Of a stretch of DNA of 64,000 nucleotides, positions 26,380-29,635 are shown in pieces (the first letter of the stretch is position 1; each line of letters opens with the position of its first letter). The notes beneath the pieces are model-generated. The model did no database searches. It saw only the letters and a program-made list of their open reading frames with translations, and was not told where the DNA came from. Source of the DNA: Ostreococcus lucimarinus (taxonomy: Eukaryota); NCBI GenBank assembly GCA_000092065.1, contig CP000581.1; one strand, given 5' to 3'. A program made the position numbers and the translations under genes.

Positions 26380-26823
26380 TCAATTCGCCTCGCTCGGCGT
26401 CTTCGTCTTGAGCTGTAGGGCGTGAATCGGGTTATCCATCTCCTCGCTGAGCGCGTCGTAAATCATGCGGTGTCGAAGCACCTGGCGCTTGCCCTCGAAC
26501 GCCTCGCTCACGATCTCCACCTTGAAGTGCGTCTCCGCGCTCGGGTCCCCGCGCGCGGGATTCCCGACGTGCCCGGCGTGCGCCGCGCTCTCGTCGATGA
26601 CGACGAGGGACGCGGGCGCGAGCGCGCGCGTGAGTTTTTGAGTGATGGCGGTGTACACGGGACGACCGACGTTCATCTTCGCCCCGGCGGTCTCTTGACA
26701 CGCGGAGCCGTCGGGTTGGACGTCGACGATCGTGGTCGTTCGACGCGCGCGGCTCGGAGCGCGGGCGCGGCCGGAAAGAAGCGGTGCGCGCGCGTGAACG
26801 ATGAGGGTCGCGGCGACGGGCAT
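26380..26823 (-). CDS. bolA: BolA-family protein with an organellar presequence
   Basis: C-terminal BolA fold signature HFKVEIVSEAFEGKRQVLRHRMIYDALSEEMDNPIHALQLKTKTPSEA. Confidence 0.8.
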   Translation of the reverse strand: MPVAATLIVHARAPLLSGRARAPSRARRTTTIVDVQPDGSACQETAGAKMNVGRPVYTAITQKLTRALAPASLVVIDESAAHAGHVGNPARGDPSAETHFKVEIVSEAFEGKRQVLRHRMIYDALSEEMDNPIHALQLKTKTPSEAN

Positions 26824-26997
26824 GAGCCGGCGAGGCGCGAAGTGCGGTGGAGGGCGCGCGAACGACCGCGCTCGCGGTCGCGGTCGCTGAGCTCGATTTC
26901 GCGTGGATGGCGTGGAAATGCATGGAAGTAGGCGTCGTATTTAAAGCGCGACGCTCGATCGCGCGCGTGATGGTCGTCAGAGCATCGACCGAAGCGG

Positions 26998-27703
26998 TCA
27001 AGCCTTCGTGTACATCTTCGCCAGGTCGTCGAGCGAGTGATCGAGATGGCAGCAAAAGTCGGTGTCGACGTTTTGTTTGCACTTCATCGCGTTTTGCATC
27101 ACCAAGTGGTGAATCTTGAGCGCGTCGACGTAATCCTCCGGCGACATCTCCGCCGCCTTGACGCGTTGGCAGAGACAATATTCGCCGATGAGGGCGATGA
27201 TCTTCCCGCAGTGTTCTTCCTTGGTCATCACCCACCGCATGGACTGGTTCAACTTCACCGGATCCGACAACCCACCGGCGAGCTCATTGATCTGCGTCAT
27301 GGCTTTTCGAATCGTCGCCGACATTTCGCGAAGACTCGCCACCATGGCGGGATCGTCGAAAATCCCGCACGGCACTTGACAGTGCCCACCGCGCACGCGC
27401 ACGCGCGCGTGCACGGTAGATTCGTTTTCGAGCGCCGCGTCGTCCCGCAGCACCGCGCCGCGCGCGTCGGTTAAGTAATCGAACGCCGCGCCTCGGCGTC
27501 GCAGCGCCGCGCGCGCCGACCCCGCCGTCGCCGCGTCCCTAACCACCAGCGTCTTTCCCTCCACTGCGCGCGCGCGCGTTCGAGCGTTTCGTCAGTCGCG
27601 CGCTCGCCGTCGTCGTTCGCGCCTTCGCCACGCGTCCCGCGCCGACGCGTCGATCGCGCGCGCGCGGCGCGCGACGCGCACCCGTGCGCGCGAAGATTTG
27701 CAT
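26998..27703 (-). CDS. sodN: Nickel superoxide dismutase (NiSOD, sodN) fused to a degenerate N-terminal ubiquitin-like leader. Two exons complement(27682..27703) and complement(26998..27563); intron 27564..27681 (GTGCGC...CAG)
   Basis: The Ni-hook HCQVPCGIF follows directly after ...VHARVRVRGG. The leader MQIFARTVEGKTLVVRD...LENESTVHARVRVRGG aligns with ubiquitin (MQIFVKTLTGK...QKESTLHLVLRLRGG). The track ORF begins at a GTG with no in-frame ATG. The real ATG CAA ATC TTC GCG CGC ACG G sits 118 bp upstream and joins through a G|GTGCGC donor and a CAG acceptor, with GACTGAC 27 nt upstream of the AG. The split codon G+TG gives Val. Confidence 0.85.
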
Positions 27704-27775
27704 GTCGAGTCGATTCGTCGTAAAGTGACGCGACTTCGTCGTCGCGACTTCGACGCGCGTCCGAGGCGCGCGCGC

Positions 27776-29635
27776 ATGGCGTCGCGCGTCGCGGCGACGC
27801 CGGCGACGCCGCGCGTCGTCTCGCGGCGCGCGGCGCGCGAGACGCGCCGCGCGCGCGCGTCGGCGCGCGCGAACGCGGGGACATCGGCGCGCGACGACGA
27901 CGTCGACGACGCGGCGACGCTGCGCGCGCTCGCCGACGAGCCCGAATCGCCCAAGGACGAGCGCGCGTCGAAGCGAGCGCTGGAGATCGTGCGCGCGGCG
28001 CGAGCGTCGAAGTCCGCGCTCGGGAGCACGAGGGCGTGGAACTCTGCGCTGCGAGCGGTCGCGCGCGCGGCGAACGAAGACGACGGGAAGGCGCGCGTGC
28101 GCGAAGTGTGGGGGTACATGCGCGATGGGAAGGTGCGGTTGAATGATTTCACGCTCGGGGAGTTGGCGCGAGGATTGTGCCGAGCATCGCGGGACGTGCC
28201 GGAGACGCTGACGACGCTGCGGGAGGCGGTGTCGCTGGGGGCGACGATGAACTCGTACGCGCTCACGACGATGTTCGCGGCTTGTAAGCGAGAGCAATAC
28301 GCATATCGCAGGGCGAAGGGGAAGTGGGCGCGCGATGAGAATAAGAAGATGATTGAGACGTTGCAGGAGGTGTGGAATGCTGGTAGGGGATATCACAACG
28401 GGTACTCGCTCGCGAACGCGATGCGAACGTTTCAATTGTCCGATCGCGAGGATCTCGCTTTGGAGATATTCAAGGAAGGCGAGGTTAAAGTATTGGACGC
28501 GCACGCTCTGCGTTGCGCGTTGCAAAGTTACGCCGCGGTGGAGGGATTGAAGAGCGCGGACGAAATGTATCGTCGCGGCAAAAAGGAAGGCGTCGTCATC
28601 GACGTCGGACACGTCAACACTTTGCTTTACGCAGCGATGGAGTCGGGCGATCACGTATACGCGACGAAAATATTTGACGATATGGTTGCGGGCGCTGAAC
28701 CATCGCCAGACGTGCTGTCGTTGGTGTACGTGTTATCAGCGTGCGCCAAGGCGAAGGAAGCCGACGTCGCGATGGAGTACTTTGAGCGCGGGTTAAAGGC
28801 GGGAATCGACTACGATATCTCCACCATCGACGCCTTGTTAAAATCGTGCGCAAAATCTGGGCGTGCCGTTGACGCGCTGGAGGTGTTCATGGACGCGACG
28901 GCTCATGGTATCAAAGTGAGAGAGTCTACAATTACTCTTTTGCTCTCGGCGTACCAAGACATCGCCGCCCAGCCCGGGCAACTGGAACAGGCGCTGACGA
29001 TCGTGGACATGGGCTTGTTTTTGAACGTTGAGCCGACCGATCGCATGGTTAAGGCACTGCTCCGCTTGTGCGTTGCGGGTGACGATCTCGATCGGGGTCG
29101 CGAGGAACTTCGCAAGGCTTGCGAACGCGGTGTGCGTGTGACGTGCTCTGCATTGAGCATTCTAGCCGAGCCGTACGCGGCTCGCGGCGATATCGACGGT
29201 GCACTGGACGTTATTCGATCAGGTAAAGGCATGGGGATCGAACTGAAATCTGGCGTGTTCATACAATGCGTCTCAGCCCGGAAAGCCCGCGGTGACGGCG
29301 ACGGCGCGCTCGTCCTGTACAAAGCGTCCAGAGACGAGTTTGATGTCGAGCCGAGCGCCCGAATCATAAACGAGCTTTTTGACGCTCTCGGACGTAAGGG
29401 GATGTGGGAAGAAGCGCTTCGAATCCTTTCCGACGACGTGCTCTCCGTGGATGGCGTCGCGCGCGCCGGCTTTAGCGAAACGGCGGTATCCCATCTAGTT
29501 CGCGCCTTCATCAACGCGGGTGATCTCGAGCAAGGCGCCGCAGCGCTCGAGATTGGTAAAATGCTCACGAATTCCGCGAACAAACTCGCCGAAGAGCGTC
29601 TGCGCGCCGCACAGAAGCGGAAGCTCAAGAGATGA
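27776..29635 (+). CDS. Pentatricopeptide repeat (PPR) protein with an organellar transit peptide
   Basis: Repeated ~35-aa helical units with the PPR/TPR-like pattern (e.g. YSLANAMRTFQLSDREDLALEIFKEG, VNTLLYAAMESGDHVYATKIFDDMVAGAEPSPDVLSLVYVLSACAKA). The presequence is Ala/Arg-rich, MASRVAATPATPRVVSRRAARETRRARASARA. The first ATG is 27776; the track begins at a TTG at 27698. Confidence 0.75.
   Translation: MASRVAATPATPRVVSRRAARETRRARASARANAGTSARDDDVDDAATLRALADEPESPKDERASKRALEIVRAARASKSALGSTRAWNSALRAVARAANEDDGKARVREVWGYMRDGKVRLNDFTLGELARGLCRASRDVPETLTTLREAVSLGATMNSYALTTMFAACKREQYAYRRAKGKWARDENKKMIETLQEVWNAGRGYHNGYSLANAMRTFQLSDREDLALEIFKEGEVKVLDAHALRCALQSYAAVEGLKSADEMYRRGKKEGVVIDVGHVNTLLYAAMESGDHVYATKIFDDMVAGAEPSPDVLSLVYVLSACAKAKEADVAMEYFERGLKAGIDYDISTIDALLKSCAKSGRAVDALEVFMDATAHGIKVRESTITLLLSAYQDIAAQPGQLEQALTIVDMGLFLNVEPTDRMVKALLRLCVAGDDLDRGREELRKACERGVRVTCSALSILAEPYAARGDIDGALDVIRSGKGMGIELKSGVFIQCVSARKARGDGDGALVLYKASRDEFDVEPSARIINELFDALGRKGMWEEALRILSDDVLSVDGVARAGFSETAVSHLVRAFINAGDLEQGAAALEIGKMLTNSANKLAEERLRAAQKRKLKR

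What the first reader, a model, noticed from the sequence alone, without database searches (positions are those of the whole stretch)
26998..27703. NiSOD precursor with a degenerate ubiquitin leader (MQIF...RVRGG|HCQVPCG) whose start codon region is split by a 118-bp intron
Mature NiSOD must begin with His1 of the Ni-hook (HCxxPCG). Here HCQVPCGIF follows directly after ...ESTVHARVRVRGG. The leader aligns to ubiquitin along its length (MQIFARTVEGKTLVV vs MQIFVKTLTGKTITL; ESTVHARVRVRGG vs ESTLHLVLRLRGG). Cleavage by a deubiquitinase after GG would expose His1. This replaces the SodX-peptidase system used by bacteria. The ubiquitin part is far more diverged than a functional ubiquitin, so it looks like a dedicated leader. 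I believe ubiquitin-NiSOD fusions have been noted in Ostreococcus; this should be verified. The MQIFART exon was only found by using the local intron grammar (G|GTGCGC donor, GACTGAC branch), which supports both the gene model and that grammar. The position-9 residue is Phe rather than the usual Tyr.
Basis: partly seen in the sequence, partly recalled or inferred. Interest (0 to 1): 0.7.

Follow-up and report, generated by a model that had tools for sequence, protein, structure and literature searches.

The report
Known ubiquitin-NiSOD fusion gene, Ostreococcus lucimarinus

Summary
On the minus strand, a 22-nt first exon (27703-27682, MQIFART+G), a 118-nt GT..AG intron (27681-27564) and a second exon (27563-26998) give a 195-aa protein. 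It reads ...RVRVRGG|HCQVPCGIF.

The splice is proven. A public polyadenylated transcript contig equals the window minus exactly those 118 nt. The same 22-nt exon and phase-1 intron occur in six related loci.

The C-terminal 128 aa are NiSOD (Pfam Sod_Ni E=1e-33; best fold matches are Streptomyces NiSOD). The 67-aa leader is a real but eroded ubiquitin:
- It is 34% identical to ubiquitin and alone gets no Pfam ubiquitin hit.
- A profile of six clade leaders hits ubiquitin at about 1e-8 to 1e-10.
- A model built without canonical ubiquitin superposes on ubiquitin (TM 0.72-0.79).

None of this is new. The exact 195-aa product is GenBank XP_001415976.1 (Ostreococcus lucimarinus CCE9901). Ubiquitin-NiSOD fusions, including those of Ostreococcus, are published, as is activation of the Ni-hook by ubiquitin-specific proteases. 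Cleavage remains untested.

One possibly under-described nuance is that erosion is confined to the Ostreococcus clade. The closest relative carrying a canonical ubiquitin keeps it at 96% identity.

The parts
27682..27703 (-). Exon 1: ATG plus 19 nt, encoding MQIFART and the first base of codon 8 (ubiquitin strand beta1)
   Evidence: It is contiguous with exon 2 in transcript contig L011. A 22-nt exon 1 is also present in 5 of 6 related loci; in L017 only 16 nt lie on the contig, which starts inside the exon.
27564..27681 (-). Phase-1 spliceosomal intron, 118 nt, 79% G+C, GTGCGCG...ACTGAC(27596-27591)...CAG
   Evidence: It is exactly absent from the polyadenylated contig L011. The intron sits at the same codon position in 7 loci, with lengths 118-295 nt. 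It has no repeat copies in the window.
27385..27563 (-). Exon-2 part of the ubiquitin-derived leader (residues 8-67), ending ...VHARVRVRGG
   Evidence: Profile of six clade leaders against the PDB: ubiquitin at E about 1e-8 to 6e-10. hhalign probability 97%. AF2 model superposes on ubiquitin, TM 0.72-0.79.
27358..27384 (-). Ni-hook HCQVPCGIF. His68 would be residue 1 of the mature enzyme.
   Evidence: H68, C69, P72, C73, G74 and F76 are invariant in 66 homologues.
27001..27384 (-). NiSOD domain, 128 aa, predicted four-helix bundle
   Evidence: Pfam PF09055 E=1.2e-33. AF2 pLDDT is mostly above 90 here. The top 8 Foldseek hits are Streptomyces NiSOD.
26998..27000 (-). Stop codon TGA
26915..26997 (-). 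3' UTR (83 nt); poly(A) is added after 26915
   Evidence: L011 matches the window down to 26915 and then carries 22 A.
27776..29635 (+). Divergent neighbour: a PPR-repeat protein. Its ATG lies 72 nt from the NiSOD ATG.
   Evidence: The same neighbour is present in the orthologous loci.
26380..26823 (-). Downstream neighbour: a BolA-like protein. It is not a SodX-type peptidase.
   Evidence: BolA E=1e-31. The synteny is conserved.

Best explanation
This is the nuclear gene for the ubiquitin-NiSOD fusion protein of Ostreococcus lucimarinus CCE9901 (XP_001415976.1). It is transcribed from the minus strand, loses one 118-nt intron after 22 nt of CDS, and is polyadenylated 83 nt after the stop codon. 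The 195-aa product has two parts. The first is a 67-residue ubiquitin-fold leader ending in Arg-Gly-Gly. The second follows with no linker and is a 128-residue NiSOD whose first residue, His68, must become the free N-terminus to bind Ni. The most likely maturation (inferred, not shown) is cleavage after Gly67 by the cell's ubiquitin C-terminal hydrolases or ubiquitin-specific proteases. These enzymes release the ribosomal proteins eL40 and eS31 from their ubiquitin fusions in the same way. In bacteria the SodX peptidase does the equivalent job. In the Ostreococcus clade the ubiquitin part has stopped being a usable ubiquitin and persists as a dedicated, still-folded pro-peptide: 1 of 7 lysines is left, Ile44 has become Asp/Thr, Val70 has become Arg, and 9 residues are deleted.
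For: Shown:
- Gene model: the exact 195-aa product is in NCBI as an O. lucimarinus protein.
- Transcript: Logan contig L011 (from run SRR28369184) equals window 29203-27682 joined to 27563-26915, followed by A22, with 2 mismatches.
- Sister species: spliced, polyadenylated contigs L012-L016.
- Conservation: the mini-exon and phase-1 intron are present in 7 loci, with synonymous changes in the exon (GCG/GCT, ACG/ACC).
- NiSOD: Pfam 1e-33. Foldseek finds 1T6U/3G4X at probability 1.0, TM 0.65 normalised to the target.
- Leader is ubiquitin-derived: end-to-end alignment at 34% identity; profile E about 1e-8 to 6e-10 against 76-aa ubiquitin; hhalign 97%.
- Leader fold: an AF2 model built from Ostreococcus-clade leaders only has beta-beta-alpha-beta-beta-beta order, pLDDT 78. 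All 50 top PDB hits are ubiquitin.
- Selection: leader dN is 2-5 times that of the SOD domain. Leader dN/dS is about 0.3-0.7, against 0.07-0.27 for the SOD domain among the six clade loci, so the leader is relaxed but not neutral.
- The invariant leader residues include F4, G10, T12, R63 (=Ub R72) and G66-G67.

From the literature: the fusion is known in 116 eukaryotes, including Ostreococcus and Micromonas (PMC6332867). Cleavage by ubiquitin-specific proteases to activate the Ni-hook has been proposed (PMC4460010).
Against: - No cleavage, Ni binding or SOD activity was tested here. PMC4460010 says the eukaryotic enzyme had not been functionally characterised.
- The leader has lost two of the three Ile44-patch residues (I44, V70), and L71 and L73 are now Val. 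Recognition by general deubiquitinases is therefore not guaranteed.
- The window's leader alone does not reach Pfam ubiquitin at E<=10. Single-sequence phmmer against monomeric ubiquitin gives only E about 0.1.
- In the full-length AF2 model, residues 1-7 have pLDDT below 50.
- dS is saturated at about 1, so the dN/dS values are rough.
Confidence: 0.83

Rival explanations
1. The leader is removed after Gly-Gly, but not by the general deubiquitinases. The agent would be a dedicated or co-evolved protease, either a specialised DUB paralogue or an unrelated peptidase, because the leader no longer looks like ubiquitin on its binding surfaces.
For: I44 to D/T and V70 to R in all six clade leaders. 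R74 is variable (R/L/I). Nine residues are deleted. Leader dN is 2-5 times that of the SOD domain.
Against: The fold, the beta1-beta2 hairpin, R72 and G75-G76 are retained. These are the main determinants of the tail-in-groove recognition used by UCH/USP enzymes (established knowledge). No candidate protease lies next to the gene.
Confidence: 0.13
2. The eroded leader marks a decaying or non-functional gene. The protein would not be processed and would not act as a SOD.
For: The ubiquitin moiety is far more diverged than any working ubiquitin (22-34% identity).
Against: SOD-domain dN/dS is 0.07-0.27 among the six clade loci. The Ni-hook is invariant. Spliced, polyadenylated transcripts exist in two species. 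The leader itself has dN/dS below 1, and its Gly-Gly is invariant.
Confidence: 0.03
3. The gene is unspliced. Translation starts at the GTG at 27564 (the 188-aa ORF called by prokaryote-style gene finders), and the MQIF resemblance upstream is chance.
For: Automatic calls in public collections give exactly this 188-aa ORF (P0001).
Against: The transcript contig lacks the 118 nt exactly. The mini-exon is conserved in 7 loci while intron length and sequence vary. GTG starts are not used in nuclear genes.
Confidence: 0.01

Closest known systems
Ubiquitin-NiSOD fusion proteins of marine algae (Ubiq-NiSOD; Sibbald et al. 2019, PMC6332867; Groussman et al. 2015, PMC4460010)
   Same: Same architecture, with ubiquitin ...RGG directly followed by HCQVPCGIFDDP. 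Overall identity to diatom, cryptophyte and other homologues is 50-56%. The first-exon/intron position is the same as in the closest relative carrying a canonical ubiquitin (L008). This gene is a member; Ostreococcus is named in those papers.
   Different: In most members the ubiquitin is canonical (96% identical to human ubiquitin in L008). Here and in five related Ostreococcus-type loci it is 22-34% identical, has 0-2 lysines, and is 65-78 aa long.
Bacterial NiSOD (SodN) with SodX peptidase, e.g. Streptomyces (PDB 1T6U)
   Same: Sod_Ni family, N-terminal Ni-hook His1/Cys2/Cys6, predicted four-helix bundle. Both need proteolytic exposure of His1.
   Different: The pro-sequence is a 67-aa ubiquitin fold rather than a short peptide. 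No SodX-type gene is adjacent. Position 9 is Phe, not Tyr. Sequence similarity is too low for phmmer to find the PDB entries.
Natural ubiquitin fusions to ribosomal proteins eL40 and eS31
   Same: N-terminal ubiquitin with a C-terminal Gly-Gly fused in frame to a cargo that is released by deubiquitinases (established knowledge). These entries appear among the PDB hits.
   Different: There the released ubiquitin is canonical and feeds the ubiquitin pool. Here the released leader is unlikely to be usable as ubiquitin.

Membership tests
NiSOD (Pfam PF09055 Sod_Ni) | Sequence match above the family's curated threshold | tested here: met
   116.8 bits against a cut-off of 25, E=1.2e-33, residues 67-194.
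NiSOD (Pfam PF09055 Sod_Ni) | Ni-hook H-C-x-x-P-C-G-x-Y at the start of the mature protein | tested here: inconclusive
   HCQVPCGIF is present and has the metal ligands His1, Cys2 and Cys6. Position 9 is Phe, not Tyr, and it is invariant in 66 eukaryotic homologues. A Streptomyces Y9F mutant structure exists (3G4X).
NiSOD (Pfam PF09055 Sod_Ni) | Four-helix-bundle fold of solved NiSOD | tested here: met
   AF2 helices at 79-105, 109-136, 149-171 and 176-192. The top 8 Foldseek PDB hits are NiSOD, probability 1.0, TM about 0.65 normalised to the target, though E is only about 0.01.
NiSOD (Pfam PF09055 Sod_Ni) | Free His1 N-terminus after processing, Ni binding, SOD activity | not testable with these tools
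   Needs protein chemistry.
Ubiquitin-NiSOD fusion (Ubiq-NiSOD) | Ubiquitin-derived domain ending in Gly-Gly fused directly to His1 of NiSOD in one ORF | tested here: met
   ...RVRVRGG|HCQVPCG in the spliced CDS. Transcript L011. Leader homology to ubiquitin.
Ubiquitin-NiSOD fusion (Ubiq-NiSOD) | Orthology to the described fusion genes | tested here: met
   All best homologues are Sod_Ni, most with Pfam ubiquitin, including the G. theta 'ubiquitin-superoxide dismutase fusion protein'. The intron position is shared with L008. The exact protein is the O. lucimarinus entry.
Ubiquitin family (Pfam PF00240) | Match to the Pfam ubiquitin model | tested here: not met
   The window's leader gets no hit at E<=10. 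Only 2 of 6 clade leaders match, best E 0.0024.
Ubiquitin family (Pfam PF00240) | Homology and beta-grasp fold | tested here: met
   Profile E about 1e-8 to 6e-10 against 76-aa ubiquitin. hhalign 97%. Predicted fold TM 0.72-0.79 to ubiquitin, using no canonical ubiquitin in the alignment.
Ubiquitin family (Pfam PF00240) | Features of a working ubiquitin signal: seven Lys, the L8/I44/V70 patch, near-invariant sequence | tested here: not met
   One Lys is left (K11), while the SOD domain keeps 10. I44 and V70 are replaced. Identity is 34%.
Ubiquitin family (Pfam PF00240) | Cleavage after Gly76 by deubiquitinases | not testable with these tools
   R72, G75 and G76 equivalents are invariant. Cleavage itself is inferred.
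Bacterial SodN/SodX maturation system | Short pro-peptide and an adjacent S26-type SodX peptidase gene | tested here: not met
   The leader is a 67-aa ubiquitin fold. The neighbours are BolA and PPR genes (for orthologous loci). The rest of the genome was not searched.

The most novel reading that the evidence does not exclude
Within the Ostreococcus clade only, the ubiquitin of the Ubiq-NiSOD fusion has escaped the constraint that keeps ubiquitin nearly invariant. It has become a lysine-poor pro-peptide without the Ile44 patch, keeping just what is needed to fold and to be cut after Gly-Gly. Its six graded variants (22-34% identity to ubiquitin) would then be a natural map of the minimal determinants for deubiquitinase processing of linear fusions. 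I did not find this erosion described in the papers I could read. Sibbald et al. mention a 'degenerate' fusion only for a doubtful red-algal transcript.
Probability: 0.5. Interest if true: 0.4.

Novelty: already known. Interest (0 to 1): 0.2.

Why it matters
The finding matters little as a discovery. The gene model has been in GenBank since the O. lucimarinus genome was published. The fusion class and the proposed activation by ubiquitin proteases are also in print.

It has two practical uses:
- It is a clean validated case of a 22-nt first exon that prokaryote-style gene callers in public metagenome collections miss. They start at an internal GTG or read through the intron, so the ubiquitin part goes unseen. 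Sibbald et al. warn about exactly this problem.
- The Ostreococcus series of eroded leaders, set beside a relative with canonical ubiquitin, is ready-made material for asking which ubiquitin features deubiquitinases really need.

Tried and rejected
- phmmer of the NiSOD domain alone against PDB sequences did not find Streptomyces NiSOD. Only Pfam and the fold comparison link them.
The same sequence worked as P0121.
- The supplementary file of PMC6332867 holds no Ostreococcus text. A further literature search on sodN, ubiquitin and Ostreococcus added nothing.
It is therefore not evidence by itself.
- The intron is not a repeated element; only short CG-rich matches occur elsewhere.
- Rejected readings: pseudogene, unspliced GTG start, and chance resemblance to ubiquitin (see rivals).
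- I did not establish species names for loci L001-L010 and L017. 'Sister species' and 'closest relative with canonical ubiquitin' (L008, probably Micromonas-like) are descriptions by similarity only.

Full report
**1. What is in the sequence**

On the minus strand an ATG at 27703 opens ATGCAAATCTTCGCGCGCACGG (MQIFART plus one base). Next comes GTGCGCG..., then an ACTGAC at 27596-27591, then ...GCGCAG ending at 27564. After that an open frame runs to a TGA at 27000-26998.

Joining 27682 to 27563 gives a 588-nt CDS and a 195-aa product. It reads MQIFARTVEGKTLVV...ESTVHARVRVRGG followed directly by HCQVPCGIFDDP....

Unspliced, the ATG frame stops after 54 codons. The downstream frame is closed by a TGA at 27594 and offers only a GTG start. 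The first in-frame ATG lies beyond the Ni-hook. An unspliced message therefore could not make a NiSOD with a removable leader.

**2. Is the splice real?**

Three independent lines say yes.

(a) The exact 195-aa sequence is already a public protein: XP_001415976.1 / ABO94268.1 / UniRef100_A4RRW7, 'predicted protein [Ostreococcus lucimarinus CCE9901]', on a 1,152,508-bp record. This names the organism. It also shows that the gene model, intron included, is the existing annotation.

(b) A contig assembled from the public run SRR28369184 (L011) carries that ORF uninterrupted.
- It equals window 29203-27682 joined directly to 27563-26915, with one mismatch in each part.
- It then ends in 22 A.
- It is therefore a spliced, polyadenylated mRNA. 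It fixes the junction, the poly(A) site (26915) and an 83-nt 3' UTR.

(c) Comparative evidence comes from five Ostreococcus-type loci with the same PPR-NiSOD-BolA synteny where enough flanking sequence is held, and from one locus whose ubiquitin is canonical.
- Five of the six loci hold a full 22-nt first exon; L017 is cut at the contig end and holds only 16 nt of it. The exons encode MQIF(A/T/V)(R/K)T, or MMIFARA in one locus.
- It is followed by GT[GA]CG[CT], an ACTGAC-like motif 23-62 nt before the acceptor, and CAG.
- The intron is in phase 1 in every locus.
- Intron lengths range from 118 to 295 nt, and the intron sequences are unrelated.
- The exon differs by synonymous changes between species (GCG/GCT, ACG/ACC), as expected for coding sequence.
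- Spliced, poly(A)-tailed contigs also exist for the closest sister species.

**3. The NiSOD part**

- Residues 67-194 match Pfam Sod_Ni at E=1.2e-33.
- An AlphaFold model built on 66 homologues gives four long helices with pLDDT mostly above 90. The hook region has low confidence, as expected without metal.
- Its eight best PDB matches are Streptomyces NiSOD entries (1T6U, 3G4X, 3G50, 1Q0D). Probability is 1.0 and TM is about 0.65 normalised to the target, although E is only about 0.01.
- Plain sequence search does not reach those entries.
- H68, C69, P72, C73, G74 and F76 are invariant across the 66 sequences.
- The Phe at mature position 9 is thus a trait of the whole eukaryotic fused clade, not of this gene. 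Streptomyces has Tyr there, and a Y9F mutant has been crystallised (3G4X).

**4. The leader**

Taken alone, the 67-residue leader is a marginal ubiquitin.
- It gets no Pfam ubiquitin hit at E<=10.
- phmmer against monomeric ubiquitin gives E about 0.1, though the alignment runs end to end.

Homology becomes clear once relatives are used.
- The six clade leaders align over their full length with ubiquitin at 22-34% identity. Two of them (L006, L010) are visibly intermediate...GRTV(A/T)(I/V)D(I/V)...D(D/T)(V/I)RA(I/V)RAKLR(N/E)K.
- A profile of the six hits 76-aa ubiquitin chains in the PDB at E about 1e-8 to 6e-10, covering 1-73 of the profile and 1-76 of ubiquitin.
- hhalign gives 97% probability, E 9e-11.

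A structure prediction made from Ostreococcus-clade leaders only, with no canonical ubiquitin in the alignment, supports the fold.
- It gives strands 2-6 and 12-16, helix 21-30, and strands 37-39, 45-46 and 57-61, then a free tail. pLDDT is 78 and pTM 0.66.
- All 50 best PDB matches are ubiquitin, with TM 0.67-0.79 normalised to the query and rmsd 2-3 Å.

The leader is therefore ubiquitin-derived and probably still folds as a beta-grasp.

**5. How eroded is it?**

Against ubiquitin numbering (alignment), these features are kept:
- M1-F4, G10, T12, G47, T66 and H68.
- R72 and G75-G76, which are invariant in the clade.

These features are changed:
- K6 to R.
- I44 to D/T.
- L69 to A and V70 to R.
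- L71 and L73 to V.
- Nine residues around 52-62 are deleted in this species.

One lysine of seven survives, while the NiSOD domain keeps ten. The loss is therefore not just G+C pressure (and the sequence itself).

Between clade members, leader dN is 2-5 times that of the NiSOD domain. Leader dN/dS is about 0.3-0.7, against 0.07-0.27 for the SOD domain. dS is about 1 and saturated, so these values are rough. The leader is relaxed but not free.

By contrast, the closest relative with a recognisable ubiquitin (L008, probably Micromonas-like; taxon not established) is 96% identical to human ubiquitin and has the same exon/intron layout.

**6. Mechanism**

Shown here: a single transcript encodes a ubiquitin-fold leader ending in Gly-Gly that abuts His1 of a NiSOD.

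Established knowledge:
- NiSOD binds Ni through the free amine of His1, so the pro-sequence must be removed.
- Linear ubiquitin fusions are cut after Gly76 by UCH/USP enzymes with almost any following residue except Pro.

Inferred: the same enzymes cut here after Gly67 and replace the bacterial SodX step. Groussman et al. proposed exactly this for the diatom fusions and noted that the eukaryotic enzyme had not been characterised (PMC4460010).

The gene's neighbours are a BolA-like gene and a divergent PPR gene whose ATG is 72 nt away. No peptidase is adjacent. With ubiquitin at the N-terminus there is no room for a transit peptide, so a cytosolic location is likely (inference).

The main uncertainty is whether general deubiquitinases still accept a leader that has lost I44 and V70. 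A specialised protease is the chief rival.

**7. Comparison with what is known, and novelty**

Sibbald et al. 2019 (PMC6332867) describe Ubiq-NiSOD fusions in 116 eukaryotes and name Ostreococcus and Micromonas as the only Archaeplastida with the fusion. They credit Palenik 2007, Dupont 2008 and Schmidt 2009 for the Ostreococcus genes, and Schmidt 2009, Bayer and Groussman for noticing the in-frame ubiquitin.

In the texts available to me I did not find a statement that the ubiquitin is eroded specifically in the Ostreococcus clade while staying canonical elsewhere, or that the first-exon/intron position is shared. This is a modest nuance, and I could not read Schmidt 2009. I score the finding as already known, with low interest.

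**8. Side result on the 'grammar'**

The seven orthologous introns do share GT[GA]CG[CT] and an ACTGAC-type motif near the 3' end. A loose pattern of that kind is no more frequent in this G+C-rich window than in shuffled sequence (14 against 13 +/- 4). The correct call of the mini-exon rests on the MQIF match plus frame logic. It does not validate the grammar as a predictor.

Noticed in passing
window 27704-27775 (between the NiSOD ATG at 27703, minus strand, and the PPR ATG at 27776, plus strand); L011: The two divergent genes have start codons only 72 nt apart. The transcript-derived contig L011 runs from inside the PPR gene straight into the spliced NiSOD mRNA. Either the 5' ends of the two transcripts overlap or the assembly merged them. 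Sister-species NiSOD transcripts start only about 36 nt before the ATG (L012-L016).
   Followed up: partly
public protein clusters (e.g. P0001, P0003, P0011, P0013, P0036, P0049): Automatic gene calls for this gene in metagenome collections nearly all start wrongly. They begin at an internal GTG/ATG or read through the intron (e.g. MTDDARTARDSRA|VEGTT......SNA|VTGKTITLEVE). They lose the MQIF exon, and some carry names such as 'small subunit ribosomal protein S27Ae'.
   Followed up: yes
L005 3077-3290 (leader of the P0011-type locus): This relative's leader is 78 aa, 11 aa longer than the window's. It has an extra MTRLDEETSLDAFGVV stretch where the window's species has a deletion relative to ubiquitin. 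The loop between strands 4 and 5 is therefore length-variable within the clade.
   Followed up: partly
window 27592-27594 within the intron: The TGA that closes the exon-2 reading frame upstream lies inside the putative branch-point motif ACTGAC (27596-27591). Intron retention therefore cannot extend the ORF.
   Followed up: no
whole window: G+C alternates between about 53% and 68% in 2-kb blocks around a mean of 60%. The intron itself is 79% G+C, higher than the flanking exons. I did not examine whether the high-G+C blocks are intergenic or intronic.
   Followed up: no
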